From Eledone cirrhosa (Eukaryota): a stretch of 64,000 nucleotides of DNA. Where the stretch lies: assembly GCA_964016885.1 (NCBI GenBank), contig OZ024745.1, forward strand, positions 41,478,001 to 41,542,000, written 5' to 3'. Below, piece by piece: positions 4,226 through 50,160 of the stretch (the first letter of the stretch is position 1; each line of letters opens with the position of its first letter). The translations under genes were made by a program, and so were the position numbers. The notes under the pieces are model-generated. The model was not told the DNA's origin and searched no databases. It saw only the letters and a program-made list of their open reading frames with translations.

Positions 4226-4980
4226 TTATCATTTTTTGAATTTACTGGGAAATTCGTATGGTATCGAGGAGGGGGGTTTTGGATACTGTGTGGGATAAAA
4301 ACCAAAACCCGTCTAAGGTCATGAGGAACTCAGGAAAGTCAATGGCCATCCAATAAAGTAGTTTTTCGTGGATTGAGAAAAGACATCTCTCTAGGAGGTC
4401 CCTCTAATATAAAACCTACAACTTCGTTTGCATCCAATGATGTCTACCAGTTCTACTTTTTGGGTAAATAGATTCGATGTTCAGAGAGTGGGGTTGTCTC
4501 CGTGCGAGCAATTGAAACCCTGCATTTTTTCTGATTACTGTACCCAATAATATCTGGTCAGTTTTCCTAAATCTACCTCTAAGTATGAAGTCATAATTTC
4601 ACTGTGTTTATGAATGCCTTAACATAGTCTCTTTTGAAAATCTCAAATAAATAATTCAATAACGAACGCATAGCCACACCTATCCAAGGCATGAAAACAT
4701 GTGAAAAACACTTGAAAAATGTACATATGTTAGACGCTGAACAAAATCCTGCAGGTTTGTATATTATATAAAATCAAAATCAATCGAAAATAAACAGCAT
4801 GTTAAACACATTTAGATTATGTAATAAAGTTTTGAATAGCATTTATCATACCCTTTTTAACATTTCACACACCTGTTAGGTTTTGCTTCACGCACTCAGT
4901 ACTATTATTTTTTTTTCAGTAGTTAAATATTTTGTGCGTAACTGCTTACTCGATCTTACTCTGTGCTTCCTGTACGAGAA

Positions 4981-5012
<32 letters not shown>

Positions 5013-5049
5013 GGTTATATATATATATATATATTTGTATATATACAGA

Positions 5050-5330
5050 TTTCTCGTACACATTTCTCCCAAAAGTCAGCTCAAAAGTAACATAGAGGAG
5101 ACTGAGGTTAGCTGGACATGCTCACCGACATCCAGAGTTGATATTGCACTCAGTGCTCCTGTGGGAGCCCCTACATGTACACACTGGAAGAGGAAGACCA
5201 AGGTTAACGTATGCTGATGCCCTAAGGACAGATACTGGTCTGTTGGAGACGCAGGACATGGCACCGATAATGAGGGACAGAGACCGCTGGAGAGAACTCG
5301 TCCAGGGATCTCGGGAATTTTACCCGCCCT
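5050..5330 (+). pseudogene. RTE-like LINE 3' end fragment
   Basis: Translates to [49 protein letters not shown]...[11 protein letters not shown], a typical RTE/RTE-X C-terminus. Flanked by (TA)n. Confidence 0.8.
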
Positions 5331-5700: not shown

Positions 5701-5706
<6 letters not shown>

Positions 5707-5963
5707 GTGAGGTTTATTTTACAAAATGAAAAATAACCGAGGTGTCCTACACGAGTGAAAGTATAAAGAAAAAGAGATGAAATCGAAAATGCAACTGGAG
5801 TCTTATTTTTTTTTTAAATATATATATTTATTTGGTTCCACAGACCCTCCATCTCAACTCACCTTTTGAAAAGCAGAAGAACTGCGAAACCGGTAAAGGA
5901 ACCAAATAAATATATATATTTTTTAAAAAAATAAGACTCCAGTTGCATTTTCGATTTCATCTC

Positions 5964-5967
<4 letters not shown>
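5701..5967. mobile_element. Family A hammerhead-containing fold-back insertion in (TA)n (PLE pLTR-derived, non-autonomous)
   Basis: Inverted arms ~5766-5839 and 5898-5967, extra tail 5702-5765 starting tagaaagtgagg, HHR at 5862-5899. Same family at 16859 and 18508. Confidence 0.8.
5862..5899 (+). ncRNA. Minimal type I hammerhead ribozyme, U3-A8 core variant
   Basis: cctt-TTGAAAA-gcag(aagaa)ctgc-GAAA-ccgg-TA-aagg: stem I cctt/aagg, stem II gcag/ctgc, palindromic stem III ccgg, UA cleavage site. Confidence 0.8.
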
Positions 5968-7050: not shown

Positions 7051-7251
7051 CTAGTTGATGTGTAAATTCGAATGCGAGAGTCTTGTGTCTATGTTAGAAA
7101 CCGACTCTCTCTCTATTGGTAAAACTTTGTGAAATTATAAAACCAGAAGAACATACATACATACATACATACATACATACATACATACATACATACATAC
7201 ATACATACATACATACATCCTTCCTCAGTTTTATATATATACATATATAGA
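7051..7251 (-). mobile_element. Short non-autonomous Helitron-like element
   Basis: Minus-strand 5' end TCtatatgtatatatataaaactgagg resembles that at 47905. Internal (ATGT)n, CTAG at 7051-7054. Confidence 0.45.
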
Positions 7252-7268
7252 TTAAAATAATAGATTAA

Positions 7269-7319
7269 AATTTAAGCAAAGAATCGTTGCTTTCACCCTT
7301 AATGGGATCTTCTGAAACT
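7269..7319 (-). ncRNA. Type I hammerhead ribozyme, family B (CAGAAGA core, U4A)
   Basis: agttt-CAGAAGA-tcccattaagggt-GAAA-gca(acgattctt)tgc-TT-aaatt. Same family at 50059 and 13632. Confidence 0.65.
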
Positions 7320-7439
7320 AAAAACATCAATCTGTGAACGCAGAAGTAAATATTTCGAAAAACGTTGCAACCGAAGGAAAACAGGAAGACGATACTTTGG
7401 TTCGTGAAGACGTTCCCTGGCAATGAACGGAAAATAGCG

Positions 7440-7730
7440 AACATAATACGTCATCAATGTTCGTCAGAATGCCGTAATGCAGACAGCCAGGCATACAGAC
7501 AGATATTATAAGAGCGCGACGGAGATGGATAACCTGCGCCTAACACCTCTTTAACAACAGAAAATTGAAAAATAGAAGCTGCAGTTAATATCTTTAGACC
7601 GCAAGGAATATATAAATGCAAGTTTGAAGTCAATCGGAGTAGAAATTTGGATTTGTATAGACTTTGCAAAAATGAGGACACGCACACACACACACACACA
7701 CTCAGACAACATCAGTTTTATATATATAGA
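7440..7730 (-). mobile_element. Helitron-like 5' fragment
   Basis: Minus strand starts TCtatatatataaaactgatg followed by (TG)n, like the other Helitron 5' ends in the window. Confidence 0.45.
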
Positions 7731-12941: not shown

Positions 12942-13521
12942 TTTAAATTCTATTGACTGATGAATAGCTTTTGTTAACTTTAAAACCATTCTGTTGAGAA
13001 CTTAATTCGTTTTGTTATATTTTGCAATTTTGCAATAATATACACATACTGAATTCATCCGCCAAAAATAAGGGTTGCCTCCCTTGTCGAGTCCCACGTG
13101 GGTATTGGTAACGGTCAATCCTTGGCCTGGCACTTGAACTAAAAGCTTGTGAGAAAGTGACTTCCTTGTTCAATCATCTTACCAGAAGCCTAACATTATT
13201 TGTCTAAGCGGACAGTACTTGATTTAGGAGTCGCAGAAACCCAAATGCTGGATTTCTACCAACCATCCAGGGGTCCGGGTAAATTTTTCAATCATTTTTT
13301 TATTTGTTTGACCCGAATTTCTTGGTCGTTTCTATGGCTGTGCGGATAATGGTTGAACCATCGTCTTGGTGTGTTTGGCCTTTTAACGTATGTTGTAGCT
13401 CTGGTTCGTTAGAATCTATTGAGCGCTTGCCACACATCTCGGAAGTTATTTTTCGCTAATTTCCAAAGCGGAAATACGATTCTCGGTTATTTATATTTAT
13501 ATATATATATATATATATATA

Positions 13522-13720
13522 GTAATAATAATAAATTTGAAGACTAAAATCCAAAGACGGCTCGATAAGGATAAATATATATTAGATATATAAGAACCGT
13601 AGAGCAAATATTTATTAAAATAACAGATTAAAGTTTAAGCAAAGAATCGCTGCTTTCACCCGTTAAGGGTGAAAGCAGCGATTCTTTGCTTAAACTTTAA
13701 TCTGTTATTTTAATAAATAT
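13522..13720. mobile_element. Family B fold-back insertion in (TA)n, apex at hammerhead stem II
   Basis: Perfect palindrome ~13607-13719 centred on ttcacccgttaagggtgaa. Tail 13522-13606 is also seen at 50237-50286. Confidence 0.8.
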
Positions 13721-13735
13721 ATATATATATATATA

Positions 13736-13929
13736 TAGGAAAATGTAAGACCCCAACGGCAGAGCTCAAGCCCTTTCGACGGCTATCTCTGAGTCCAGAA
13801 ATAGCCGTCGAAACGGCTTGAGCTCTGCCGTCGGGGTCTTACATTTTCCTATTACCCACTCTACTACCATAAGTATTGAGTACTCTGGTACGTTATGGTC
13901 CATCTGGTTCCTTACCACAACTCCTTCGT
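13736..13929. mobile_element. Family C fold-back insertion in (TA)n with half hammerhead
   Basis: Palindrome 13736-13851. Right arm reads stem II gacggctat...atagccgtc, then GAAA-cggc(ttgagctct)gccg-TC-gggg. Tail 13852-13929. Related sequence at ~15430-15460. Confidence 0.7.
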
Positions 13930-13932
13930 TAT

Positions 13933-14582
13933 ATATATATATATAAAGTTGTATTCCTGTCTCTTTGTTTGTTTGTTTGTTCACGAACTACTTCTATGGT
14001 TTGGAGATAGACCCCCCATAACCATATATATTCTGAAACTACATTGCCCAGAGTACTTGGATAGGTATATTTCATTTTAATCAAAGGGTTTCCCGGGGGC
14101 ACAAAACCCCGCTGAAATTTTTTCCCTTCGATTTGTATGAAATTTAAACCATAGATAAAAGACAAGATATGATTCCTATTCACAGAATTTCAGCAAATTT
14201 CAATAATATTAAGACACCCTAATGGGGGTTAAACCCCCATATTAGGGTTCCCCGGAGGCACAAACACCCGCTGAAAGTTTTTCCTTTCGATTTATATGAA
14301 ATTTAAACCATAGGTAAATGACAAGATATGATGCCTATTCACAAAAGTTTTGAATTTATATTTTGAAAAAAATTATTTACAAGAAACAAAATAAGAATAC
14401 GATTCATTTGATTTAATATATTACAAAAAATAATGTTTTCCAATTTTTCATGCATTACATTTTACATTGAGTAATATTGAAATGCAGGGTTTTTCTCCAT
14501 AAATTATATCACTGATTTAAAATCAATCATCATTTTCTTACAAAAAAAAATGTGTGCAGCAAGACGCGGGTAATTCGGCTAG
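13933..14582 (+). mobile_element. Non-autonomous Helitron with internal ~160-bp tandem duplication
   Basis: 5' tatatatataaagttg...(GTTT)n, duplicated block at 14085/14244, 3' end gacgcgggtaattcggCTAG. Confidence 0.6.
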
Positions 14583-16010
14583 TACATATATATATTCATA
14601 TATATATATATATATATATATAAATCTACGAAATCACATTACCACGAGGTGCGTTGCGCATTCATAGCATTGTAACATTGTGCCACACACCATTTTGCTC
14701 AAAGCTAACTGAAATGAATTCAGCAACAGAGTACACCACTCACAGACTCAGTGATGTAGTGGCAATATTGAACAAATTAATTAAGGTTATCAATAGAATT
14801 AATATGACTAGCAACAAATCGACCATCAAATCAATTAATGAAAAATATCCAAATTATTGATATATCCAACAAGTAAATTAAGGCCGCCAATAAAATTAAT
14901 ACAACTAACAACAAACAATCGATAATCGAATCAATTAATAAAAATATAAAAAGATATTGATATATATCCAAACCAGTACCAGTTTCACTAAATGACGAAC
15001 TACAAGTATCAGTTACGTAAATAAGTGTATATTCAAACACTCAGTGGCATCACAACCCGGAATCGGCATAAGGATCGTCGGTGGGCATTATCCTGTACCT
15101 AACACAGGGAAAAAATAAGACATTTTATTAGGCATTTGCCATAGTGACATTCACCAGCTCTGCTTTTGTGTGCATGCCACTAACCTTGAAAACAAGTAGA
15201 TGTATCTATGCTGTGTTGTCCAAAAGAGGCAGGAATTAATGGAAAAAATTAATTCGCGTTTTCAGAAATTTTACTCATAGTAAAATTACTACTTGGAGTA
15301 AACTATATTCATAAATTTAGGAAATCATATTGCCACGAGGAGCTTTGCAGATCCATGGCATTGTAACACCGTGCCACACACTATCTCACTCAATGCTGGT
15401 TGTTTCAACAGTCAGTCCGGAATTAGCTATTGAAACGACAAGAGCTCAGCCGTCGGGTTCTGAATCTTTATAATTCCCCATAAAAACTTGTCCTCTGTTA
15501 ATTATCTCACGTTTATATATATCTTCCCTTACTGCTATCCTCTTTCTCTCTCCCCCTTCTCTCTCTTACTTTCACTCACCCCCTCTGCTAGTCAACCTCT
15601 CTCGGCTAGCCCCTTCCTCGCACTTTCACTCATTCACTCTCTGCTACTCATCCTCTCTCTCACTTCCTCCATCGTCCCACACCCTACGTGATCCTTTTCC
15701 TCGCTCGTTCTTATGTTCGAAATGAATTATTGACTTGATTTTTCATTTTTTCCTCTCTTTACGTTGCCTCACCATTCGTGTTTGTTTGCATGTCTCTCTT
15801 TCTCCACCCAATCTTTTTATCCCAATAACTTATTTTAGTTATTGTATCGCCCTAGCTGGAAGTATATTGTCTGTAATGCGAAGAAATACCTATGATGGCT
15901 AGTAGACAACTGATGATGGATATTCCTAACTTCTATTTCTAATTCTCCATTTATTATAGTTAACTGCAACAACACAGCTCGCCTTTTTTATTTATATATA
16001 TATATATATA

Positions 16011-16460
16011 TAATTAGGGAAGTAGAAAATTGCTTATTGTGATCCAGTTCTTGGTTAAGAAAGCCAGTTTCATGGATGGTTTCAACGTACGGTTAGGGGT
16101 GACTCCACAAGTTTGTAAGAATTCCCTTTAATCTTGGAGTATAAAGTATAAAAGAGAAAACACAGGTAAGCATTAAGAGAAGGATTTTATCCAGGTATGT
16201 ACGACCGTTTCATTGGTAAGTGCAACCTTATATTGCTATACTGCAAATAGGAGCCACTCAATTATAATTGTTGTTCACAGTCAAAATTTTCATTAAAAAA
16301 ATTTAAAAAATTTGAAAATTTGGACTGTGAACAACAATTTTAATTGAGTGGCTGCTATTTGCAGTATAGCAATATAAGATTGCACTTACCAATGAAACGG
16401 TCGTAAATACCTGGATAAAATCCTCCTCTTAATGCTTACCTGTGTTTTCTCTTTCATACT
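16011..16460. mobile_element. Family D fold-back insertion in (TA)n with half hammerheads
   Basis: Imperfect palindrome ~16146-16460. Each arm carries GAAA-cggtcg-TA-(a/c)atacc but no CUGANGA. Tail 16011-16145. Confidence 0.7.
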
Positions 16461-16470
16461 ATATATATAT

Positions 16471-16811
16471 AAATAAAATTAGAATTGGTGCTCTGAAATA
16501 GCTATATATATATGAATGTATATATAGTGTATTTTGCAATACACTGTATGCTTCATTAAAACCATTTCGAAGACCGTATGCTATTATTTTAGAGTAGTGA
16601 CAGGCTCACTTACTTTAATGTTCACCAAACAGGGGAGATAAAGCTGACAAGGCCCTGTTTCGCATTTATTGATGCTTATCAAAGCTTTATCTCCCCTTTT
16701 TGTTGCAAATTAAAGTAAGTGAGTCTGTCACTACTCTAAAAGAATAGCATAAGGTCTTCGAAATGCTTTTAATTAAGCATACAGTGTATTACAAAATACA
16801 CTATATATACA

Positions 16812-16820
<9 letters not shown>
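16471..16820. mobile_element. Family E fold-back insertion; ~135-bp arms extend hammerhead stem I
   Basis: Arms ~16506-16645 and 16683-16820 with a complete HHR as the loop. Tail 16471-16505, (TA)n flanks. Confidence 0.85.
16642..16686 (-). ncRNA. Type I hammerhead ribozyme, U3-A8 core variant
   Basis: agct-TTGATAA-gcat(caataa)atgc-GAAA-cagggccttg-TC-agct, with a GUC cleavage triplet. Confidence 0.85.
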
Positions 16821-16858
<38 letters not shown>

Positions 16859-16864
<6 letters not shown>

Positions 16865-17198
16865 GTGAGGTTTTTTTTACAAAATGAAAAATAACCGAGG
16901 TGTCCTACACGAGTGGAAATATAAAGAAAAAGGGATGAAATCGAAAATGCAACTGAAGTCTTATTTTTTTTTTAAATATATATATTTATTTGGTTCCTTT
17001 ACCGGTTTCGCAGTTCTTCTGCTTTTCAAAAGGTGAGTTGAGATGGAGGGTCTGTGGTTTAAAAACCACAGACCCTCCATCTCAACTCACCCTTTGAAAA
17101 GCAGAAGAACTGCGAAACCGGTAAAGGAACCAAATAAATATATATATTTTTTTTAAAAATAAGACTTCAGTTGCATTTTCGATTTCATCCCTTTTTCT
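16859..17198. mobile_element. Family A palindromic insertion with two divergent hammerheads
   Basis: Palindrome ~16920-17198 centred on ggtttaaaaacc. HHRs at 16996-17033 (minus) and 17090-17127 (plus). Tail 16859-16920. Confidence 0.85.
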
Positions 17199-17271
17199 TT
17201 ATATATATATATATATATATAAGTGTATATGTGTGTGTATATGTATGTGTATGTATATGAGCATGTATATA

Positions 17272-17336
<65 letters not shown>

Positions 17337-17420
17337 ATATATATGTATATGTATATATATATATGTGTATATGTGTGTGTGTGTATGTGTATATATATGT
17401 ATATATATGTATATATATAA

Positions 17421-17460
<40 letters not shown>

Positions 17461-18153
17461 ATGTGTATATATATGTATATATATATATGTATAAATATAT
17501 ATATATATATATATATATTATTTTTATATTCTTTTAATTTCCCCTCATCTTTAACAGCACTTTTCAACTGCATCTAACTCTTATTTATCATATCTATATG
17601 TATTAGTATAATTTTATCAATATAAATATACCCATCAATTAAATTAATTTATATTCTTTTCATAGATGTATTTTTTTCACTAACATTCTTATCTTAAAAC
17701 TTTAGTCACCTTAGATATTTGTATTGGCATTACTACTTTATAACAGCAACTGCTTGTATACCTTTTACTGACCATCTGACCTATTTTCACCCCTAAAATA
17801 AGCTTCAATTACTACTACTTTACCATTTGGCCAATTATTAACTTTCTATTGGTTAATTCTAAACCTCTTACCAAACAGACAGAATATATTAGATCTTTGT
17901 TGGTTTTATTCAATGAAAAAATAAAATTATTTCTGAGGTCAGCATGAGACCTATTTCTTCCCTAAAATAATCCTTCATTCATAATATTCTTTTCCATCCA
18001 AAACTGAAATCTACCTTCCTCTACCCATAATTTAAGGTTCTTCTACTACTATATTACTATCCTGACCCTCACTATCTCTCTATTGGTCAATTCAAAACCT
18101 GTTCCCAAACAGACCTATTGTATTGAATCTTTGTTTTTTTCAATAAACAAATA

Positions 18154-18295
18154 TCATTATTTCTGAAGACAGCATATATATGTGTAGGTATGTATATTCC
18201 CTCTGATAGTTTGTATAAATATTGTACATAGATCTATAGAATATGCATACCAACTCTAACACATATATATCCTAGAAACGATCGTAAAATGATGA
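18154..18295 (+). ncRNA. Type I hammerhead ribozyme with ~105-nt extended stem II
   Basis: tcattattt-CTGAAGA-[long imperfect hairpin: atatatatgtgt/acacatatatat and ggtatgtatattc/gaatatgcatacc]-GAAA-cgatcg-TA-aaatgatga. Stem I is 9 bp and stem III is palindromic. Confidence 0.75.
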
Positions 18296-18507
18296 ATTTT
18301 TTTAATATAAGGAACTGTTTCTTTGTTTATTCATTATTTTATTAATTTATCTTGACTCTGTTTTCCGTTTATTTTTCACCGAAAGTAGTTTTTGAATGCA
18401 TCTTCTCTTTTCATGATATCCGGATTACATTGAGTTCTTCATACGGATTGGACACTACCGTAAACTTTTGGTAGATTTATCTACATACTATATATATATA
18501 TATATAT

Positions 18508-19203
18508 TAGAAAGTGAGGTTTTTTTACAAAATGAAAAATAACCGAGGTGTCCTACACGAGTGAAAGTATAAAGAAAAAAAGATGAAATCGAAAATGCAA
18601 CTGGAGTCTTATTTTAAAAAAATATATATATTTATTTCGTTCCTTTACCGGTTTCGCAGTTCTGCTTTTCAAAAGTAGAGTTGAGATGGAGGGTCTGTGG
18701 TTTTTTTCACATCTGGTTGGTCTCTGAATGTTACTTGTTTTATATGGAAAAAGTGGCTCGAAATGCCAGGTTTTTCGAGAAGTAATTTGATTGGTTGGTC
18801 AATAATTATAATAAATTTCGCGCCAGTTCGCGTTACAAAGTTCTTCAATCAAAGGGGGGGGGTGTCATAGGTTGTTTTTTCATATATGAGTGTTTCAATT
18901 TATTTTTACTTAAAAAAAAGGGGGCTCACGAAGGCTTTTTTTTTAATAAACGTAATTTGATTGGTTATAAATGAAATTATGGTTGTCACGTGAACAAGTT
19001 TTCATTAAATTTTCGCGCCCTTATTTGGAAATCCATTCTGTAGCATTTTTAGAGAAGTTTATGACAAGTAAAAGATAATGGTCAAGAGAAATTGGATGGG
19101 AGAATTGTTCTGGTTCAGTGAATATGGTTAGTTCGCTGGGGTGTCAGAATTCAGATTTTCTATTGAATAAAGAAAGTAAAGATATGTATGTTTATTTGTG
19201 TGC

Positions 19204-19237
<34 letters not shown>

Positions 19238-19995
19238 TTCTTTTTACTTAAAAAAGGGGCTCACGAAGGCTTTTTTTTTATAAAACCAATCAAATTACGT
19301 TTATTTAAAAAAAGCCTTCGTGAGCCCCTTTTTTTAAGTAAAAAGAAATTCAAACACACACACACACACAAGCACACAAATAAACATACATATCTTTACT
19401 TTCTTTATTCAATAGAAAATCTGAATTCTGACACCCCAGCGAACTAACCATATTCACTGAACCAGAACAATTCTCCCATCCAATTTCTCTTGACCATTAT
19501 CTTTTACTTGTCATAAAATTCTCTAAAAAGGCTACAGAATGGATTTCCAAATAAGGGCGCGAAAATTTAATGAAAACTTGTTCACGTGACAACCATAATT
19601 TCATTTATAACCAATCAAATTATGCTTATTAAAAAAAAAGCCTTCGTGAGCCCCCTTTTTTTAAGTAAAAATAAATTGAAACACTCATATATGAAAAAAC
19701 AACCTGATACCCCCTCCCCCTTGTTTGAAGAACTTTGTAACGCGAACTGGCGCGAAATTTATTATAATTATTGACCAACCAATCAAATTACTTCTCGAAA
19801 AACCTGGCATTTCGAGCCACTTTTTCCATATAAAACAAGTAACATTCAGAGACCAACCAGATGTGAAAAAAACCACAAACCCTCCATCTCAACTCTACTT
19901 TTGAAAAGCAGAAGAACTGCGAAACCGGTAAAGGAACCAAATAAATATATATATTTTTTTAAAAATAAGACTCCAGTTGCATTTTCGATTTCATC

Positions 19996-19999
<4 letters not shown>
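18508..19999. mobile_element. Family A ~1.4-kb palindromic insertion with two divergent hammerheads
   Basis: Near-identical arms ~18570-19278 and 19306-19999. HHRs at 18642-18675 (minus) and 19898-19934 (plus). Same tail as 5702 and 16859, (TA)n flanks. Confidence 0.85.
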
Positions 20000-20057
<58 letters not shown>

Positions 20058-20184
20058 CAGTTCACTCAGCTGTAGAAATGATTTTACCCAGCTATGGGTT
20101 AAATAGCCTGACCGAAGCCAGAAACATAAAACGGTGAATGTCAATCAGGGAGGGGTTCTTCCGGTAGGAGTGAAAAGGCCCTGG

Positions 20185-20240
<56 letters not shown>

Positions 20241-20244
<4 letters not shown>

Positions 20245-20675
20245 AAAGAATAGAGGTGTAACACACAAGTTATTATATATTGGTAAACGGAATAGAAAAT
20301 GCTGACAAATTGTTCACAGTTGAAAAATGGTTTAATTAGGAATAAAAGAGTATTAGTGATTGTATGGGTTAGTATTCAGTTGTGGTTTTAAGTTTTTAAG
20401 TTTTTACCGGTTGCGCATTTCTAAATGCTTTTCAAAAATAATTTTGAGATAGAGTGTCCGTGCTGTTTGCTCTGATCTGAGCAAACAGCACGGACACTCT
20501 ATCTCAAAATTATTTTTGAAAAGCATTTAGAAATGCGCAACCGGTAAAAACTTAAAAACTTAAAACCACAACTGAATACTAACCCATACAATCACTAATA
20601 CTCTTTTATTCCTAATTAAACCATTTTTCAACTGTGAACAATTTGTTAGCATTTTCTATTCCGTTTACCAATATA
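20241..20675. mobile_element. Family F palindromic insertion with two hammerheads (UUGAAAA / GCAA variant)
   Basis: Palindrome ~20273-20675 centred at ~20475. ttt-TTGAAAA-gcattt(ag)aaatgc-GCAA-ccgg-TA-aaa at 20513-20549 (plus) and 20402-20438 (minus). Tail 20241-20272. Confidence 0.8.
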
Positions 20676-21689
20676 TATATATATATATATATGTGTGAAG
20701 GTGTGTGTGTGCGTCTGCGTAAATAGAGAGAGGGAAGTAGGTAGCAGAGACAAAGAAGAAGAGCTAGATGGACAGTAAGACAGGCAGCATAAACGTAGCA
20801 TTGTCTTAAGCAACTTAATGCACTTGCCAAAGTTTTTTTAACATTGCAGCCATATAAAATACGATTATTATCTCACAGAAATATGAGCCAATTCATATTT
20901 GAATATGTGTTGGGGGGGGGGGGGGGGTTGTGTGCGTGCGTGTGTGTGTTTGCGCGAGTGTGTGTGTGTATGTGTGTGTAGCTGATACATAGCATGAACA
21001 TTAAATAATGTAGTATATGCCAAGGAAGTGTATATATTTAAACCGTAGTATGTGAACATTTGTATCGAATGGAAGTTTGTAGACTTACCCTACGTTTTTG
21101 GCAACATGATGCATATATCAACTAGGTTTATTGAACAGTATGTCCATATTTGTATTCTTTAAATAACATAAACACTGGAACATAGATCCCCTACCCCATT
21201 ATATATATGCATAAAAATACATATATGCTTACATACATACATATTATCTGCTGTAACATGATTTCACGCTTGTGTGTGATCAGGTAATTGAACAGATCGC
21301 TGTGTGTGTCTGTGTGTGTGTGTGTGTGTGTGTTTCATATTTAAGACATAACTATTTTGTAGTATGTTGTATTGTATTACGGGTTTTTCACATTTCCTTA
21401 ATACCTCATTGTGTTTAGCTTGGAACTATAGCGATCCTAAATCTATATGTCTTCTGAAAGTTAAACATTTCACATCCTTATCTTCAGAAATAAAAGGTGG
21501 ATAGCAAAGGTGTGCTGTTCGCGTGTTTTGTATTTGTCGCAAAGGATCGTGGGAATACTGGTTTAAATATCTAACGGTTTAAATATCTATTAATGAAATC
21601 ATTAAGGTCAAATACTGGTCAAACCATGTTCGATAGATAATAGATAGACATACATACAGACAGACAGTCATAATTACAAATAGACAGAC

Positions 21690-21751: not shown

Positions 21752-22589
21752 ATTTCTTTATTAGCCACAAGGGCACAAAAGAAGGGGACAAATACAAATG
21801 GGGAGTTTACATACAGGTATATGAAAATAAAACTATTAATACAATAACAAATAACAATTGAAATCCCCAATAGGGGGGAGGTGTTACACGGGGGTTGTAC
21901 ACACCCCGAAAAAATGTACAACCCACATCTCCAGGAGCATCAAGAGTGAGTACTCCCTTCCTCTCTTCCTCTTTTTCCTCAACCTACAGGCTTATATAGA
22001 GAGAAGGCCCAACCACTCGCGCCATCTTTGCCACATTCACCCACCTTTTATAAAATTATCTGATTCTTCTTCTAAAATGATATTTGAAAAAACGAATCAG
22101 TTGCTCGCCGGAGAGGACGGTGTCTGACATCAGCTCTTTTAACCTCGTCCACCATATAACCTCTTTCACCATAGCCATAACACATAGGAAAACAGCCTCT
22201 CCCTCGTTTTTGAAGGAGGGTGGCGGTTTGATCTTGACAATGGACTCGGTGGTCAACTGGATTGGTCCCACTCGTGACAATAGTCGTTCTACATAGCCCC
22301 ACAGGTCAGTAACGCCCGGGCAGTGTACAAATGCGTGTGTGACGGTTTCCTCGTCGCGCACGCATCTCGGACAGATCTTTTTCGAAGGGTCCTTATCCGG
22401 GCGCCCGTGTCTGTAGAGCTTGTCTCGAACTGATAGAGCTCCTCGGTAGCACTGCCAAGCCAGGGACTTTTGGTAGTTGACCATTGGTCCCGGGCGGAAG
22501 GTCCTACCGAACAGACTGGCCAGTTCGTCCTCCTCTACGCCTAGAGTTTCTCCGAGCGTGTCGTCGCATTTGCTGCGGACCAACCCTCT

Positions 22590-22594
<5 letters not shown>
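21751..22594 (-). mobile_element. 5'-truncated Tx1-clade LINE (ORF2 C-terminus + 3' UTR) in (GATA)n
   Basis: ORF 22056-22583 has the zf-RVT-type motif CPRC..DEETVTHAFVHC. The 3' end ttgtggctaataaagaaat is followed by (ATCT)n. Confidence 0.9.
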
Positions 22595-22627
<33 letters not shown>

Positions 22628-23257
22628 TTCTTTATTAGCCACAAGGGCGCAACAAGAAAGGGGACAATACAAAGACATGCCGGGGATTTTACATACAGTC
22701 GTGTAAAAAAATATAAAAACAAACAATTTCAACAATCGAAATCCCCAATAGGGGGGAGACGCCACAAATGGGTTGTTTAATACCCCGTCGATAGAACAAC
22801 CCTCAACTCGAGGAGCGTGTTGTGCAAGTGCTCCTTTCTTCCTTTTGCTCTCTTCCTCAACCTACAGGCTTATAAACAGAGAAGGCCCAATCACTCGGGC
22901 CATTTTCGCTTCATTCACCCACCTTTCAGTAAATTTACTGGGGTGCAGTGCCTCTCTCTCCACCCTGATTCTCCTTCTAAAGTGATACTTAAAGAATGGA
23001 ATCAATTGTTGTCCGGAGAGAAAGGCATCTGTCCTCAGTCCTCTCAACCTCGTCCACCATATAACTTCTTTCACCATAGCCACCGTACAGAGGAAAACCG
23101 CTTCTCTTTCGTTTTTGAAAGAGTCTGGCGGTTTGATCCTTACTATGGACTTGGCAGTCAACTGTATTTGTCCCATACGCGACAGCAGTTGTTCTGCATA
23201 GTTCCACAGGTCGCTTACGCCCGAGCAGTGTACAATTGCGTGCAGAACTGTTTCAAT
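22628..23257 (-). mobile_element. Second 5'-truncated Tx1-clade LINE in (GATA)n
   Basis: ETVLHAIVHCSGVSDLW...FKYHFRRRIRVER, homologous to 24833-25456. Same 3' terminus, (GATA)n on both sides. Confidence 0.9.
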
Positions 23258-23301
23258 TAGATAGATAGATAGATAGATAGATAGATATGTTTCTTTATTT
23301 T

Positions 23302-23341
<40 letters not shown>

Positions 23342-23395
23342 CATGCATACATTGTTGGACACCGTCGTTTTTCAATGTTTCTGTTGTCGCTTATG

Positions 23396-23590
23396 CCGAC
23401 CTACCAATTCTACCCGTCGGACGGGGAGATCTCCCACCCACTTTGGGTTGGGTGAGAGATGTCCTCTCTTGTGAAAATGGGTATAGCTTACATTATGTAA
23501 AATCTCCCCACGTTGCCTCATTTCTTCGCGTTTTGGGGCACCTTTTTTCATAGTACTCACCGTTTACGTTTTCAGAGATTGGCAGGTCTG
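23396..23590. mobile_element. MITE with CAGACCTGCCAA-like TIRs
   Basis: Ends ccgacctaccaa / ttggcaggtctg, flanks cttatg/cttatt. Second copy at 58184-58354. Confidence 0.55.
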
Positions 23591-24832
23591 CTTATTTTAC
23601 CCCATTTCAACCTTACTTGGGATGGTGAAAGTGATGTGGATTGGTAATTTAGAGTAGATTGAAGACATCTTTCAGTAATATAGAAAATGACTTTTTCCAT
23701 TGGTCATCCCTGGTTATATACAACTTATGATGTAAACAAATAGTATACATTTTGTAGTTACACGAACAAATATTTTAGATCAACATATGTAGGTATTTAG
23801 TGGTACGTAAGGTCCTTTGTAATGACAAGGTACATTTGGTGGAACCCTATATTCTTGCTAACTATTACATAGCAGAATTGTATTAGCAGTAGCTAGAGAA
23901 TTCGGTCACTGCTTCATCGCAGAAGGATTTGTCAATAATAAGTTCTTAACACCTTACCTTTATCTCAGGTGTTTTAGCACCCTAAATCTCAACTTCCTTA
24001 CAAGCTTGTAAATGTCCTACTCCTCTTTAATTATACAATACCAATTTTCGAATGTGTTAAACATATTCAAGCGTTCAAATATGCTCATACTTTATTCAGT
24101 AAGTCCTTAGTTTCATTGGTTAAGTGTCATAAAGTTGCTACTGTGAAATCGCTTGTTAATAATACTCAGCACTGTGAGCCATAAATATCCAATAAATCCC
24201 ACCCTTTAAAGCATACTCTACCATCTTAAAACAAATGTGTTATATTGGATAACGTAGTTCAAAGTACGCTATATCTGAATAGAAAAGCATGGAGAGTTAC
24301 GGCCGGGATACATTTGATCATCAAAAGTCTGCTTGACTAGGGCTAATTTATATATTTATGACTAGAAAATTTGATACTGGTCATGCGAAGTATATTGTCA
24401 AATATAGTAGTTTCTTTCTGGAGGAGGTTTGAACTAAGGGTTAACACCCTCTTCTATTGACAGGAGAGACATAAAAAGACAGAGAAATGATGAGTGATGT
24501 TGAATGAAGAAAATTGTAGGAGAAAGCATTAAGTATATAACAAAATATATGTATATAAATAGATAGATAGATAACTTTCTTTTTATTTGCCACCAGGGCG
24601 TCAAAGAGTGGGACAAGTACAATGGGGGAGTTTACATAAAAAGGCGTCCTCAATAAGGAGGAGGCAATAACAAAATATAAAAATATAAGATATAAAATAT
24701 AACAAAAATAAATTGAATAACAAAATCCTCAATAGGGAGGAGGCGCTTTGGGGGGTCGCACACACCCCCGAAAAAGTGTGCAACCCTTCTCCTCAGGAGC
24801 ACAGAGCTCCCTTGATCTTTCATCTTTCTCAC

Positions 24833-27800
24833 CTACAGTCTGATGTAGAGTGAAGGCCCATTCACACGGGCCATTCTCGTCACTTTCACCCATCTTTCAT
24901 AAAAACGACTGGGGTGCAGCACCTCTCTCTCCATCCTGATCCTTCTTCCGAAATAATATCGGAAGAAACGGAGCAGTTGTTGGCCAGAGAGAAAGGTGTC
25001 TGACCTCAGTCCTTTCAGACGCGTCCACCATACAACCTCTTTCGCCATGGCTATTACGCACAGAAACACCGCCTCTCCTTCGTTTCTGAAGAGGGGAGGC
25101 GGCTTGATCGTTACAATAGACTTGGTGATCAACCGGATCGGTCCCACCCGTGACAGCAGTCGTTCGACATAGCCCCACAGATCGGCAATGCCCGAGCAGT
25201 GTACCAATGCGTGTGCAACGGTTTCCTCGTCGCACCGGCATCTGGGAAAGATCTTTATCGAGGGGTCCCTACCCGGGCGCCCGTGTCTGTAGAGCCTTTC
25301 TCGAATGGGCAGAGCCCCTCGGTAGCACTTCCAGACCAGAGAGCTCTGGAAATTATCCATAGGTCCCGGGCTGAATGTCCTAACGAACAGGTTGGCCAGT
25401 TCGTTTTCCTCTATGCCTAGGGCTTCTCCGAGGGCGTCGTCGCACCTGCTAACCACCAGCCCTCTATAGAATGACGAGGTGTATTCTCCACTGACAGCCG
25501 GGTCCGCCTGCCATAGAGCCGTGAGCGCCTGGGCACACTCGGTGTGCCAGGCGCCCAGTTTTCTCGGTCTTTGCTTGACTCAGGATTGCAGCTCGGTGAG
25601 CGAAACGAATCTGGGAAAGGCTCGCCTCACTAACGGGGCCCACACCGGTTGACCGGTGAGGAATACCTGGAGATGCCGTAGCCTTAATGCGTGTTTACGC
25701 ATCATCAGCCACGGCATGCCCAGGCCCTCCTTTCGAAGGGTGTTGACAGCAGATAGATCTCCTCACCATAGGAGCCCGCTTCTTCCAAAGGAATTGGAAG
25801 AGTGCGCGCTCCATTTTGGCGAGCGTTTCCCTTGGACAAGGCACGACGGTCAGGCGGTAGTAGATGACGGATGCTATATAAGTGTTCGCCACCTCCGCCC
25901 GACCTTTCAGGGACAGTTTGCACTCGGCCCACTTCTGGGTCAGTGCAAACACCCTGTTTGTTACCTCACCCCAGTTCTTCTCCGCCTGGAGGTCTGGTCC
26001 GAACCAGACTCCGAGCAACTTCACTGGGCCCTCCGTCAAGCGCCCGCCGACGCCATCGTAGGGCATCGATTTGCCCCTCCACGTGCCGAGTTGCAGACCG
26101 ATCGACTTGTCCCGGTTCAGCTTAGCCCCTGTAAACCTTTCGTACTCCTCCAGTAAGGTGCCGATCGCCCCGAATTCCGAGGCCGTCGACACCATTACTG
26201 TTACGTCATCGGCGTAGGCCGACACCGCTTTCCGCAATCCCGGTTCTAACGGGATGCCCCGCAACACCTCCAACTTCCGCAGTAGTGGCTCTAGAGTCAT
26301 TACATACAGAAGGGAGGAGAGAGGGCACCCTTGTCGGATGGACCGCGCCATTTCGAACGGCTCCGAGAGGTAGCCGTTCACTTTGACCCTAGAGCAGATG
26401 CGGCTGCTGTGCATGGCAGTGATCCAGCCCCTGAAAACGGGTCCGAAGCCTGCCGCCGCTAGCACCATATCCAGGTAACCATGGTCGACCCTATCGAACG
26501 CCTTAGATTGATCCAAGTTGATCAGGGCCCCACCAAAGCCGGGTTCGTTCCCAACCCTCTCTATCGTGTAACGCATGAGATGGAGGTTGTCGTGGATGGA
26601 CCTGGATGGGATAGCACATGTCTGCGCATCTCCCACCAGGTTGCCCACGACAAGCGCCAACCTCTTTGCTAGCATCTTGGCCAAAATCTGTAACTCTGTA
26701 TTTAGCAGAGTTATGGGCCTGAAATTATTTATATCGTCCCCCTTGTTCTCGTCCTTCCTCACTAGCGTGACTACGCCCTTGGTCACAGCACAGGGAATTC
26801 TCCCGTTCTGTTGCCCGTTGCAGTAGACCGCCTCGAGGAGATCGGGGAACAAGTCCAGCATAGCTAGATATAGTTCGTATGGAAAACCATCGAGACCTGG
26901 GGATGTGCGTTTGCCGCATTGGCTCAGCACGTCCTCTAGCTCAGCACCTGAAATCGGCTCCTCGCAGGACTTCGCCTCCCTGTCCGAGAGACGCGGCAGG
27001 CCGTCGAGGTATGGACCGAAGTCCACTTCCCCAACCGGCTCCCCGCCCCTTCCGAACAATCTGGCAAAGTGCTTTTGAAAAGCCTCGCAAATCTGCTTAG
27101 GTTCAAGGATCACCCATCCATCCTGGTCTCGCAAAGACCGGATAGTGGATCTAGTCTCTCTTTTAGCCTCTGTCACGCGGGCCCAGCTAACAGCTTTGGT
27201 CCCCTCGTTTCCCAGAGCACGTATTTTGCTTCGGACGATGTAGCCTTCGTGCTTCGCGTCGAAGAACTGGCCCAGGGCCGTTCTAGACGGTAGCACTCTG
27301 GCCACGTCGCCGCTTCTAATTGCCTCTTCTACACTAGCTACCAACTCCCTTTCCTTCCTATTTCTATTTGAGGCTAACTCCTTACTAAATTCTATAGCGA
27401 CTACTCTAATCTCTCTTTTGAGAGAGCCCCACCACCTGCTGTTGACGATGGCGCCCGTCAACCGCGCCTTAACTAAAATGCTAATCCGGTCCCTGTAAGC
27501 TTTACTTGCCGGTAAGGACAAGTTGAGCTTCCAGTAACCGGGTCCCTGTCTATGCGTTCTGTCAAGGTTGACCATGCAAGTCACTAACTTGTGGTCTGAA
27601 TAGCCAACTATGAGCATTTTTGGACAACTTAAAAAGTCCTTATCCTCATTTCTAACTAAGAACCTATCTAGGTACGATCTAGATGATCCGCTGGGGTTTG
27701 CCCAAGTCCAGGTTGGCGCAGTCGGAAAATCTAGTCGATATCTATCGGTCAGGTCAAATCGGCCGAGTAACCCTTTGAGGCTGTTACACCCCCCTCTATC

Positions 27801-29998: not shown

Positions 29999-30621
29999 TT
30001 TTATCAAAGTAGGACATTTTTCGAACTATATTTTTTAGAACTATATTTTTTAGGACTATATTTGTACATAGGTGAGACAGCTCGTAGTATAGGGGAACGA
30101 ATAAATGAACACTGGCGAGACCTCCAAGATAATAAAGAATCATCTGTGCTCTACCAACATGCTAAGATAGAACACAGGGGTAGATTAGAGAGCATAGAAA
30201 TAAAAATAGAATCCACGCACAGAAAAGACGCAATGTTTAGGCAAATTACAGAGGCAGTAAGCATAAAATAATTAAAACCAAAATTAAATAGAAAATTCGA
30301 GTGGAACAGCAACATCACAACTTACAATTAAGGACAAAATGAAAACACACACACACATAGAACAAACAACTTACAATTGAAAACACACACAAAATGAAAA
30401 CACACACAGGAGAAAATGAAAACACACACACACATAGAACAAACAACCAACCAACAATAAATAAATAAATAAATAAACAAATAGAAAAATGAACACAAAC
30501 ACATACAGACACCCGGATGTGGCACATGCGCAAACTGAGCACACAACACACACACAGAAACAAAATGGCGTAGGATAGAAGAAAGAAAAGGCACAGAAAC
30601 GAAGAGAAGAAAGGAATCCCC

Positions 30622-30666
30622 AGTCACTGAAGAGGTCACAGAGTGTGTGACGAAAGGACTATGACT
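30622..30666 (+). ncRNA. Minimal type I hammerhead ribozyme in 5' pLTR
   Basis: agtca-CTGAAGA-g-gtcac(agagtgt)gtgac-GAAA-ggac-TA-tgact. Minimal HHRs are an established feature of PLE pLTRs. Confidence 0.85.
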
Positions 30667-30808
30667 ATATATATAAACAACTATCTGGTTGTGGAACCAA
30701 CCAACCAAACAGAAATTTATAGGTTTGTAGATTTGTAAATTTATAAATTTATAAATATATAATAAATTGAAGTGAAAGCAACTGGTGCGTGTGTTTCTTA
30801 TTGGCAAC

Positions 30809-33800
30809 ATGACCCTCCCAAAGTATAACAATATCGGTTTCAACACACGATTTCAGATAAAGAATCTTGCTAAACAAATTCAGAAACGAAATATCGTAAG
30901 CCTTAGCCAGGCTAACAAGATACTGAAAACCACCATGTTCTGTTGTCTACGAAAAACCATAACATCTCGACAACTACACTTCATAAAACTGTGCACCACT
31001 TCTAGAATCTACACCAACACCATCAATACCGACGTTAGAAGATTACAACTCACCAAAAAACAAGCAGATAGGCTAAAACGAACTTTAATTCTAAACATAA
31101 AAAAGAAGATCTATAGAGAATTAAGTCATCAAGAAAAACTAAAGCGTAACTTAATACAAGAAATATCTAAAATCACCACACCAGCAGAAAAACTAACATC
31201 TATAAGCCTTATACGCCCCGAAGAACAGTACATTACTCAAGAATGTGATAACCACTTTAACAGAAAATTAAAGTGGCTTAAACAGGCAAAGCTAAATCGG
31301 GATACTATAGAGTATACCAATAGATATCCCGACAAAATTGACGGTATCAACATGGCCGACACCTCATTATCTGAAGAGTTCAACAACGAAAATACCAACA
31401 TTTATGGAAACACGGAAATAGATAATAATGAAATGTCTGTATTACGTCTGCCACCCAAATATGCGACATTCAGGAGGGTAAATATGATTAGTTGTCTGTC
31501 AGAAATAGAAAAATCATTTACAAAACTACGCTGGAGCATCAAAAACAAAAGCAACAATATACGCACACACATATACAACACACATCCCAACAACGACAGA
31601 CACACAGACAAAAACAACAATAACAACAACAACAACAATAGCAACATACCCAGATACAACAACAACAATAGCAACATACCCAGATACAACAACAACAGAC
31701 ACGCAGACACAAACAACAATAACAACACACACAGCAACGATAACACACACGGAGACAACAATAACAACAACACACACATCAACAACAATAGCAACATACC
31801 CAGATACAACAACAACAGACACGCAGACACAAACAACAATAACAACACACACAACAACGATAACACACACACACACGGAGACAACAACAAAACACATCAA
31901 CAACAACACACATCAACAACAACAACACACACGCATTCAATGCCTCTCACCACCACCACAATCTTAACAAACACACAGACACAGAAAACAAGTAATGACA
32001 GTAGCACAGAAATCAGAGAAATAAGAGAAAGTAATAGGATTAAAAAGAATAAGAGATGGGAGACTAAGGACAAAGAGAATAACCAAGACGAACACACAGA
32101 CACACAAAATAGGGTAGATAACAACATTGAGCCAGTGGAAAGAGACAGGAGTAATTATGAGAGACATAGAAACAACCATGAAGCTGAGGCTGCTGGTGGA
32201 AATAGAAATAGAAATAACACAACTAACAATAATAATAGCACTAGTACACATAAAGCAGCAGCCTGGAACTCTCCGTTTTATAACCCCTCCGATAAATCAT
32301 TCGACCTACGACGAGTCCACGCCACGACTTTGCCATTTAACAAACGCACGCAGTTGCCGTCGCAGGTCGATGAACAAACAGAAGCACAATTTAGTATAGC
32401 TAAATCCGAACTTAGAAATATTATAGAACAGTATAGCAAGAAGCATAATAGAATAGAGGCCCAGCAACTGGGAGAAGAATCTGCAAATGGCTTGCGTAAG
32501 CTCATGCAGCGCTCGCGTAATGGAGAAATAGCATGTTTTCCAACAGACAAGTCTGGCAGAATGTCGGTTGACAGCCTGCCAAACTACATCCAGGCAATGC
32601 AACCCCACATCACTAACACAAGAGAGGTAACACCACAGGAGCATGAGGATAGAGAAAAAGCCCTCAATGCCCATATGGTGATGTGGACGAATATAATGGA
32701 GCCCAACAAAAGGACTGCCAACAACTTCCAGGCCTGGAACAATGACGTGCCGGCGTTGTATGGGCTTCGAAAAGACCATAAAACGGGCTGGGACCCTGTC
32801 ACGGGACCACCAACACGACCAGTCTGTGGGGCTAACATTGCTAGTAACTACAGACTGTCCTACTTCCTCTCCCTGATCATACGCCCCATCATTGAGATGT
32901 CCCCAGATGTGTGTCACAGCACGGAGGACCTCCTCAGCAGAATCGGCGCGGGTAACCGATCTGGGGATCTGGAGACCTAACAAACTGCATAATAGGCAGT
33001 ATGGATGTTGTGTCCCTGTATCCATCTATTGGCGTGGATTTTGCTGTGGAGAAATGCGTAGAAATGATCAGCGAGAGCAAGGTTGAGTTCCGTGGGATTG
33101 ATACCAGTGAGCTGGGACTTCTACTTAAGCTTACCCATAGTAATAGTTACCTAGACACTTATGACCTTAGCAACCTGTGCCCTACAAGACCAGCAAGAGG
33201 CAGACCACCTACCATTACCTCAATGGCCAAGAAAACCCACACAGATAGATGGAACGGGTGGACCAGAGCCATACGGACACCCGAAAACCACGATGAACTG
33301 AAGAAAATGATTGCACATGCGGTAGGGGCCAGCATAAAATTAACCCTTAAGGAACATATGTTCAAATTTAATGGTAAAACATATGCCCAAGAGGAAGGAG
33401 CAGCCATTGGTGTTAGCATTGCAGGCGACATAGCTAACTTATCCATGGTATGGTGGGACAGTAGACTTAAACAAAAACTTAATGAACAATTAGAAGACAG
33501 CTTAACCCTGATAATGTACTCCCGCTACGTAGATGATATAAACATCGTAGTTAAGACACCCCCACTAAAGAACAGTCAGGAACTAGAGAAAAACACAATG
33601 GAAAGCATCCAGCAAATAGCAAACTCCATCCACCAGAGCATTAGAGTTACTATAGACTACCCAAGTAGACACCCCAACCATCGATTACCTGTACTAGACA
33701 CAGAGCTCTGGTTAGATACCATTAACAACCAAAAACAAATCCTCCATTCCCATTATGCCAAACCCATGACTTCCAAACATCTGATCCACCGAAACTCGGC

Positions 33801-34656
33801 CATTTCGGACCATACCAAAATCAACATACTGATTGCGGATTTGGTACGGGTGATGAGAAATGTGTCCCGCATGTGCAACCCCGAAGAACTAGAGAGACAC
33901 ATACAACACTTCATCCACCGTATGCAGTTCTCTGGCTACAATCAGAGAGATAGAATCAGAGTGTATAAAGAAGCCAGAACCAAATGGGAAAAAATGGTAA
34001 ATAATGACATAAATGGGACCTGCCCCTTGTATAGGAGCAAATTTTGGAATAGAATAGAAAGAACTAGGAACAAGGCCAATAGAATAAACTTATGGTATGA
34101 TAGCAATAAATACCAGAGTGTAATGTTCATCAATACAACCCCTAGAGGCGAACTAGCCTACAAATTTAGAAGGGCCCTAAATAAACATAATCTCAATATT
34201 AAGATAGTAGAAAGACCTGGTACCTCCGTAAAAACACTTATTAGCAAGACATACCCGTTCCAAAGACCCTCATGTATAGATAAGAAATGTATAACCTGTA
34301 AAATAAGCCCCCATATTAACTGTAAAACTAGAAATGTAGTGTATAGCATAAGATGTACTGAAGGACAATGTAGAAACAAAAATATAGTGTACATAGGTGA
34401 GACAGCTCGTAGTATAGGGGAACGAATAAATGAACACTGGCGAGACCTCCAAGATAATAAAGAATCATCTGTGCTCTACCAACATGCTAAGATAGAACAC
34501 AGGGGTAGATTAGAGAGCATAGAAATAAAAATAGAATCCACGCACAGAAAAGACGCAATGTTTAGGCAAATTACAGAGGCAGTAAGCATAAAAGAATTAA
34601 AACCAAAATTAAATAGAAAATACGAGTGGAACAGCAACATCACAACTTACAATTAA
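30809..34656 (+). pseudogene. PLE polyprotein (RT + Cys linker + GIY-YIG endonuclease) with one frameshift
   Basis: PTDKSGR, LYGLRKDHK, RPVCG, SMDVVSLYPSI, GAAIGVSIAGDIANL, SRYVDD, LPVLD, CIDKKCITC, NVVYSIRC..YIGETAR..RINEH..EAVSI..PKLNRK. Frame break at 32958-32973. Confidence 0.92.
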
Positions 34657-34946
34657 GGACAAAATGAAAACACACACACACATAGAACAAACAACTTACA
34701 ATTGAAAACACACACAGAATGAAAACACACACAGGAGAAAATGAAAACACACACACACATAGAACAAACAACCAACCAACAATAAATAAATAAATAAATA
34801 AACAAATAGAAAAATGAACACAAACACACACAGACACCCGGATGTGGCACATGCGCAAACTGAGCACACAACACACACACAGAAACAAAATGGCGTAGGA
34901 TAGAAGAAAGAAAAGGCGCAGAAACGAAGAGAAGAAAGGAATCCCC

Positions 34947-34991
34947 AGTCACTGAAGAGGTCACAGAGTGTGTGACGAAAGGACTATGACT
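34947..34991 (+). ncRNA. Minimal type I hammerhead ribozyme in 3' pLTR
   Basis: Identical to 30622-30666. Confidence 0.85.
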
Positions 34992-35215
34992 ATATATATA
35001 TAAACAACTATCTGGTTGTGGAACCAACCAACCAACCAGAAATTTATAGGTTTGTAGATTTGTAAATTTATAAATTTATAAATATATAATAAATTGAAGT
35101 GAAAACAACTGGTGCGTGTGTTTCTTATTGGCAACATGACCCTCCCAAAGTATAACAATATCGGTTTCAACACACGATTTCAGATAAAGAATCTTGCTAA
35201 ACAAATTCAGAAACG

Positions 35216-35277
<62 letters not shown>

Positions 35278-49990: not shown

Positions 49991-50058
49991 GTATGTATAT
50001 ATATAGTGTGTAATGTTTTTCGAAATATTTACTTCTGCGTCCACAGATTGATTTTTTT

Positions 50059-50109
50059 AGTTTCAGAAGATCCCGTTAAGGGTGAAAGCAGCGGTTCTTT
50101 GCTTAAACT
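50059..50109 (+). ncRNA. Type I hammerhead ribozyme, family B (U4A core)
   Basis: agttt-CAGAAGA-tccc(gttaa)gggt-GAAA-gca(gcggttctt)tgc-TT-aaact. All three stems pair. Confidence 0.7.
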
Positions 50110-50120
50110 TTAATCTGTTA

Positions 50121-50160
<40 letters not shown>

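What the first reader, a model, noticed from the sequence alone, without database searches (positions are those of the whole stretch)
13607..13719. Fold-back occurs at hammerhead stem II, with the intact parent visible in the same window
Seen: the intact family B HHR occurs at 50059-50109 (plus) and 7269-7319 (minus). Here the sequence 5' of stem II (agtttCAGAAGAt) is replaced by the exact reverse complement of the 3' side, so the palindrome centre is the ccc-gttaa-ggg stem II loop. This is internal evidence that ribozyme helices act as inversion points. Inference: hairpin-primed second-strand synthesis during PLE integration.
Basis: partly seen in the sequence, partly recalled or inferred. 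Interest (0 to 1): 0.75.

Follow-up and report, generated by a model that had tools for sequence, protein, structure and literature searches.

The report
Penelope stub folded at hammerhead stem
This 113-base mirror repeat is two short copies of the end of an abundant repeat, likely a Penelope-like jumping gene in an octopus-type genome, joined head to head at a 3-base-pair hairpin of a hammerhead-like RNA motif; it is likely an ordinary by-product of insertion, and most other joints seen lie elsewhere, so ribozyme stems are not shown to be special turning points.

Summary
Observation confirmed: 13608-13720 is a perfect palindrome (54-bp arms, 5-nt loop) whose joint is the CCC/GGG stem II of a hammerhead-like motif found unrearranged at 50059-50109 (+) and 7269-7319 (-). 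The motif is variant (A at core position 4, U-U at 10.1/11.1), cleavage is untested, and both 'parents' are truncated pieces inside a Helitron-like element. Reads show family B is high-copy with tailed and tail-less 3' ends in (TA)n, the known architecture of Penelope-like insertions; no linked RT gene was found. The generalisation is weak. None of 6 strand-switch joints shown in reads (15 of 36 joints were displayed) repeats the stem-II joint. Of 8 palindromes examined in the window, 2 (perhaps 3) turn at a hammerhead helix. A post-hoc hint remains: 3 of the 6 shorter arms end in stem II. The loop is co-oriented with the tail-less arm, which a simple fold-back of one target-primed cDNA cannot produce. 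Most likely: fold-back of the tail-less cDNA plus a second priming event that supplies the tail (inferred). Self-priming at palindromic junctions was proposed in 2013. A tidy example of a known structure.

The parts
13608..13661 (-). Left arm: family B 3' part (stem II 3' strand, GAAA, stem III, putative cleavage site, stem I 3' strand, 45 nt downstream); tail-bearing
13659..13669 (+). Joint: stem II hairpin CCC-GTTAA-GGG, 3-nt microhomology; loop reads in the sense of the right arm
13667..13720 (+). Right arm: same family B part, tail-less, runs into (TA)n
13559..13607 (-). Family B tail (one-sided extension). 1466 and 1384 reads in two runs continue past the tail-less end into it; a second copy lies at 50236-50286
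13522..13558 (.). Either more tail or target DNA; unresolved
   Evidence: no match to the 50-kb copy
13498..13521 (.). Left (TA)n flank
13717..13736 (.). Right (TA)n flank, shared with the next palindrome (13735-13852)
50009..50128 (+). Unrearranged family B piece; hammerhead-like motif 50059-50109; inside a Helitron-like element (about 48886-50316)
7251..7434 (-). Unrearranged, tail-less family B piece; hammerhead-like motif 7269-7319; 5' limit approximate; inside a Helitron-like element starting near 7730
30064..35217 (+). Context only: a different, near full-length Penelope-like element in partial tandem, with canonical minimal hammerheads at 30622-30666 and 34947-34991; not homologous to family B

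Best explanation
The palindrome is two 5'-truncated copies of the 3' end of an abundant repeat, likely a Penelope-like retroelement, joined head to head at the CCC/GGG stem of its hammerhead-like motif, and it was likely built in one insertion into a (TA)n tract in which a short cDNA folded back on that stem and was copied while a second priming event likely supplied the one-sided tail. Steps: (1) the element's enzyme cuts both strands of (TA)n and starts reverse transcription at two sites of one uncleaved RNA (shown in vitro for an anole element, PMC11167929; inferred here); (2) the cDNA from the nearer site (tail-less, right arm) stops just past stem II (inferred); (3) its 3' end pairs back through CCC/GGG and primes the sense strand (3-nt microhomology shown, priming inferred); (4) that copy anneals to the cDNA from the farther site, which carries the tail and is attached to the other target end (inferred). 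Stem II serves as one convenient hairpin among many, not as a required turning point.
For: Perfect arms and joint at the foot of the stem. Two classes of 3' end in family B: 1466/1384 reads continue into the tail and 1009/991 into (TA)n, of 14402/14143 laid in two RAD runs. The same layout, (TA)n-extension-arm-arm-(TA)n, holds in the neighbouring palindromes. In family D both arms of each of 3 loci share locus-specific bases, pointing to one template. In all 4 junctions that can be oriented (13664, 5836, 17061, 19288) the tail-less arm reaches further 5' (only 2 nt at 17061). Centres are near-symmetric over arms of 54-700 nt. Read joints scatter with 0-3 nt of homology. Literature: inverted 5'-truncated copy, tail and (TA)n bias (PMC8557442); self-priming at palindromic junctions (PMC3846280); two RT start sites, both strands cut and extended, ribozyme cleavage not needed (PMC11167929).
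Against: No RT or GIY-YIG gene has been tied to family B. Steps 2-4 are inferred from end products only. Four of 6 read joints are asymmetric by 61-132 nt, which needs no fold-back. Polarity rests on 4 junctions, 3 from one family, and 16503-16825 may be a counter-example if its 31-nt left extension is a tail. Shared bases in both arms could also come from later gene conversion. The tail copy at 50236-50286 lies downstream of, not upstream of, the sense copy and is unexplained. The stem-II joint itself was not among the displayed read joints.
Confidence: 0.5

Rival explanations
1. Pure twin priming: two full cDNAs, one from each start site and target end, anneal at their 3' ends through CCC/GGG; no hairpin priming.
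For: Explains tail on one arm, the polarity, and asymmetric joints of 61-132 nt. The anole protein extends both strands and is predicted to be a dimer.
Against: Does not readily explain centres symmetric to within 0-55 nt on arms up to 700 nt, nor locus-specific bases shared by both arms, unless both templates are tandem copies of one transcript.
Confidence: 0.2
2. A hairpin intermediate (self-primed cDNA, or self-priming on an antisense template as in Arkhipova 2013) carries the tail on both arms, and the endonuclease then trims it from the template arm.
For: Gives the same polarity and symmetry. PMC8557442 ascribes the tail to endonuclease resolution; PMC3846280 proposes antisense self-priming.
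Against: PMC11167929 maps the tail to the interval between two RT start sites, so trimming is not needed.
Confidence: 0.15
3. One reading: hammerhead helices are preferred inversion points, and one target-primed cDNA folds back there and copies itself.
For: This joint is at stem II; 16503-16825 extends stem I of a hammerhead; 13735-13852 turns 16 nt before a GAAA half-motif. Two or three of 8 against about 3% per junction gives P 0.022 or 0.0013 under a rough uniform model. Three of 6 shorter arms in reads end in stem II.
Against: Polarity contradicts simple self-copying in 4 of 4 oriented cases. 0 of 6 read joints are helix-symmetric. Five of 8 window joints are not at a helix. The finding's own joint is among the 8, the natural stem II of the 13735 family is unknown, and short cDNAs end near the hammerhead anyway. 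The hotspot claim taken alone (without simple fold-back) has about 0.3 probability.
Confidence: 0.1
4. Post-insertion rearrangement (break-induced fold-back) or an assembly fold-back artefact.
Against: Such a copy would run from the template arm into its own flank, yet the copy arm holds a family tail the template arm lacks. Neighbouring palindromes have diverged arms (92-99%), and strand-switch joints of family B occur in independent runs.
Confidence: 0.05

Closest known systems
Inverted-pLTR insertions of endonuclease-bearing Penelope-like elements (Arkhipova 2013 PMC3846280; Craig 2021 PMC8557442; passages read)
   Same: Head-to-head 5'-truncated copies, palindrome at the inverted junction, one-sided tail, microsatellite target, self-priming proposed.
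   Different: Only a 54-bp stub; the tail is at least 49 nt rather than 30-40; the junction palindrome is a hammerhead-like stem; the passages read do not tie junctions to ribozyme helices or to tail polarity.
Poseidon element of Anolis in vitro (Frangieh 2024 PMC11167929; parts 1-2 of 4 read)
   Same: Two 3' end classes (tail), AT-rich target, template uncleaved at the hammerhead.
   Different: That study did not resolve second-strand synthesis or inversions; family B has no ORF start at the motif.
[quoted passage not shown]
   Same: Type I topology near the element's 3' end, short stem I; U3-A8 cores of neighbouring families are a described variant.
   Different: Family B has A at position 4, U-U at 10.1/11.1 (a tolerated natural variant in PMC3088659, passages), a 3-bp stem II and a non-palindromic 4-bp stem III.
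L1 twin priming and small-hairpin inverted duplications (bioRxiv 10.1101/2024.12.14.628481, passages; PMC2837659, listing only)
   Same: Inversion joined by microhomology at a two-ended insertion site.
   Different: In L1 twin priming the two pieces do not overlap (recalled); here they are near-mirror copies.

Membership tests
Penelope-like element insertion | Head-to-head inverted, 5'-truncated copies | tested here: met
   depth falls 5'-wards
Penelope-like element insertion | One-sided tail; two classes of 3' end | tested here: met
   loose ends at 7251 and 7232
Penelope-like element insertion | Microsatellite or AT-rich target | tested here: met
   (TA)n on both sides
Penelope-like element insertion | Linked PLE RT plus GIY-YIG ORF | not testable with these tools
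   No genome held; no family B homology to the window's PLE; pattern scans empty
Penelope-like element insertion | Target-site duplication | tested here: inconclusive
   hidden in (TA)n
Hammerhead ribozyme, type I | Stems I, II, III around the core; GAAA; A15.1-U16.1; H17 | tested here: met
   (5, 3, 4 bp; triplet CUU); 0.05-0.1 chance hits per 64 kb
Hammerhead ribozyme, type I | Core CUGANGA (or U3-A8) | tested here: not met
   CAGAAGA in both copies; no majority variant at these places among the 40 best-supported read differences shown (297 not shown)
Hammerhead ribozyme, type I | G10.1-C11.1 pair | tested here: not met
   U-U; described as a tolerated natural variant in PMC3088659
Hammerhead ribozyme, type I | Folds into the three-way junction | tested here: inconclusive
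   stems II and III in the 7-kb copy, a competing fold in the 50-kb copy, z near 0; no Rfam hit at E<=1
Hammerhead ribozyme, type I | Self-cleavage | not testable with these tools
   needs an in vitro assay
MITE or amplified palindromic element | Many copies sharing the same centre | tested here: inconclusive
   The stem-II joint is absent from the 15 best-supported of 36 joints, so it is unlikely to be high-copy; 21 joints not shown

The most novel reading that the evidence does not exclude
Penelope-like elements build their mirror-image ends by fold-back of the tail-less cDNA captured by a second, tail-only cDNA, and the hammerhead's stems are hotspots where the first cDNA stops and turns; the ribozyme fold would then shape insertion structure without cleaving, and octopus genomes hold enough such junctions to test both rules.
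Probability: 0.25. Interest if true: 0.6.

Novelty: new member of a known kind. Interest (0 to 1): 0.3.

Why it matters
How Penelope-like elements make their inverted ends and finish second-strand synthesis is an open question (stated in PMC8557442 and PMC11167929), and the role of their hammerheads is unclear. One junction settles nothing, but this window offers two countable rules: which arm carries the spacer, and whether joints favour ribozyme helices. Such perfect hairpins may also add to the high double-stranded RNA potential reported for octopus (PMC5625713, passages; link inferred).

Tried and rejected
No genome was held, so the genome-wide breakpoint plot could not be made. Rfam gave no hammerhead hit on family B; its miRNA hits on the palindromes are all below gathering score. 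Family B patterns found nothing in metagenome or viral contigs. No RNA holder was listed, which says nothing on expression. Earlier findings by place, by sequence and by the long word list were empty. Family B as native Helitron sequence was considered and rejected: its depth and loose ends separate it from the Helitron segment. A common ancestor for the 5.7-kb and 17-kb family D palindromes was considered unlikely: they carry different arm-shared bases. A spliced form restoring a canonical core (a possible 3' splice site precedes the motif) had no support among the displayed loose ends and stays untested. Pair counting on the family B alignment was not obtained. Two of 10 self-palindromes (2497-2760, 4971-5060) were not examined. 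Seven paper searches showed no paper linking PLE inversion joints to hammerhead helices; the library lacks most subscription papers, and no supplements were read.

Full report
Observation. Positions 13608-13720 form a perfect palindrome with 54-bp arms and a 5-nt loop; 8 local shuffles of 10 kb gave at most 16 bp. The right arm with the loop matches 50072-50128 at 56 of 57 bases. The two unrearranged copies carry the motif at 50059-50109 (+) and 7269-7319 (-). The base before CCC is T in the parents and A in the palindrome, so the switch is at the foot of stem II with 3 nt of microhomology.

The motif. It has type I hammerhead topology: stem I 5 bp, stem II 3 bp, stem III 4 bp, GAAA and a CUU triplet. 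A descriptor relaxed enough to find it returned 7 hits in the window and 0.05-0.1 per shuffled window over 20 shuffles. It departs from the consensus at core position 4 (A) and at 10.1/11.1 (U-U); the second is a tolerated natural variant (PMC3088659, passages). No majority read variant at these places appears among the 40 differences shown, of 337, so the deviations are probably family-wide (inference). The three differences between the 7-kb copy and the read majority inside the motif (7270, 7287, 7303) fall in loops or keep pairing. Predicted folds are not better than shuffles and Rfam gave no hit. It is hammerhead-like; activity is unknown.

What family B is. I laid 4 of 15 listed runs on 7228-7670. 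Two RAD runs gave 14402 and 14143 reads. At the family's short 3' end, 1466 and 1384 reads continue into a sequence matching 13584-13613 at 29 of 30 bases, while 1009 and 991 continue into (TA)n. The palindrome's left extension is therefore a family tail; a second copy at 50236-50286 supports 13559-13607. Both parents follow the same upstream segment (49114-49169 and 7462-7517) inside an element with Helitron-like ends (my reading of the termini from recalled features), and read depth and loose ends separate family B from that segment. Tail, (TA)n target, truncation and head-to-head layout are the described features of Penelope-like insertions (PMC8557442, passages; PMC3846280, passages). No RT gene was tied to family B. 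The window holds a different element at 30064-35217 with an RT-like ORF (weak Pfam hit) and canonical minimal hammerheads; its best hit is an Octopus vulgaris protein at 67% identity, so the host is likely an octopus.

Test of the hotspot claim in reads. One search displayed 15 of 36 joints; 6 switch strand: 7302/7314, 7302/7434, 7306/7319, 7324/7413, 7337/7464, 7373/7434. The joint of this finding maps to 7295/7306 and is not among them. None is symmetric about a helix; offsets are 12-132 nt and homology 0-3 nt. Stem I and III joints would be hard to detect with this reference, head-to-head geometry is supported by the reported overlap for only one joint, and the ends at 7434 and 7464 lie where the reference diverges. 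Stem II is the third most stable of 37 short hairpins in 184 nt.

Test within the window. Of 10 self-palindromes, I examined 8. At a helix: 13664 (stem II) and 16664 (arms extend stem I of a U3-A8 hammerhead). Possible: 13793, which turns 16 nt before a GAAA half-motif but has no intact parent. Not at a helix: 16302 (92 nt upstream of a half-motif), 17061 (about 29 nt upstream of stem I), 19288 (about 610 nt), 20475 (40 nt) and 5836 (asymmetric; one arm ends 2 nt past the predicted cleavage site). Two or three of 8 exceeds a rough 3% expectation (P 0.022 or 0.0013), but the set includes the finding itself and ignores truncation bias. Helices are sometimes used, are not required, and may be modestly favoured.

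Mechanism. The loop reads in the sense of the right, tail-less arm. A target-primed cDNA that folds back and copies itself must keep the loop on the template arm, and its copy cannot gain element sequence the template lacks; yet the tail is on the copy arm. The same polarity holds at 5836, 19288 and, by 2 nt, 17061; 16503-16825 may be a counter-example and three others cannot be oriented. Both arms of each family D locus share locus-specific bases, and centres are near-symmetric even on 700-nt arms, which favours copying from one template. In vitro, an anole Penelope protein cuts and extends both strands, starts at two sites that bound the tail, and does not need ribozyme cleavage (PMC11167929, parts 1-2 of 4). 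Taken together, the best fit is fold-back of the tail-less cDNA at CCC/GGG, with the copy captured by a second cDNA that carries the tail (0.5). Rivals: pure twin priming (0.2), hairpin intermediate with trimming (0.15), simple fold-back at helix hotspots (0.1), rearrangement or artefact (0.05). All mechanistic steps are inferred from end products.

Relation to what is known. Palindromes at inverted junctions were already read as self-priming (PMC3846280), and opposite-strand hammerhead pairs were noted in PMC4209133 (passages). Seven searches showed no paper tying joints to hammerhead helices or to tail polarity; PMC13282606, PMC5625713, PMC6431247 and two bioRxiv preprints were seen as passages only, and no supplements were read. 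Earlier AI notes on other genomes describe similar stubs with varying centres; they are unchecked and not independent support.

Verdict. A real feature, a new member of a known kind of structure. The hotspot idea is unproven but testable, and the polarity rule is the more informative lead. Interest 0.3.

Noticed in passing
window 13735-20677 and 5701-5967: A dense run of head-to-head palindromes from at least five unrelated families in (TA)n tracts, each with a one-sided extension.
   Followed up: partly
window 16631-16697 (-): A complete U3-A8 hammerhead forms the centre of the 16503-16825 palindrome, whose arms extend stem I.
   Followed up: partly
window 5701-5967, 16859-17204, 18508-20009: Family D: three independent inverted insertions with a 60-nt tail and a U3-A8 minimal hammerhead with palindromic stem III. 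The T/A run differs between tailed and tail-less arms in the same way at two of the three loci; unexplained.
   Followed up: partly
window 50236-50286: A tail-only piece of family B, ending exactly at the tail boundary, lies reversed near the 3' end of the Helitron-like element; unexplained.
   Followed up: partly
window 48886-50316 and 7251-7730: Helitron-like elements carry family B fragments; reads suggest an amplified composite starting at position 7366 of the reference (494 reads in one run).
   Followed up: partly
window 49209-50011: An 803-nt insertion flanked by an exact 20-nt direct repeat interrupts the 50-kb composite.
   Followed up: no
window 30064-35217 (+): Near full-length Penelope-like element in partial tandem, ORF split at about 32960 with an asparagine/threonine-rich insert, ending in (TA)n about 80 nt past a likely start codon in the 3' repeat.
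   Followed up: partly
window 50045-50064: A pyrimidine tract with AG just before the motif looks like a 3' splice site; splicing could change stem I or the core.
   Followed up: no
window 21754-27941 (-): Several L1/Tx1-like LINE pieces, one with a 748-aa RT frame.
   Followed up: no
window 15410-15461: Decayed relative of the 13735 family with a short inverted piece at about the same position.
   Followed up: partly
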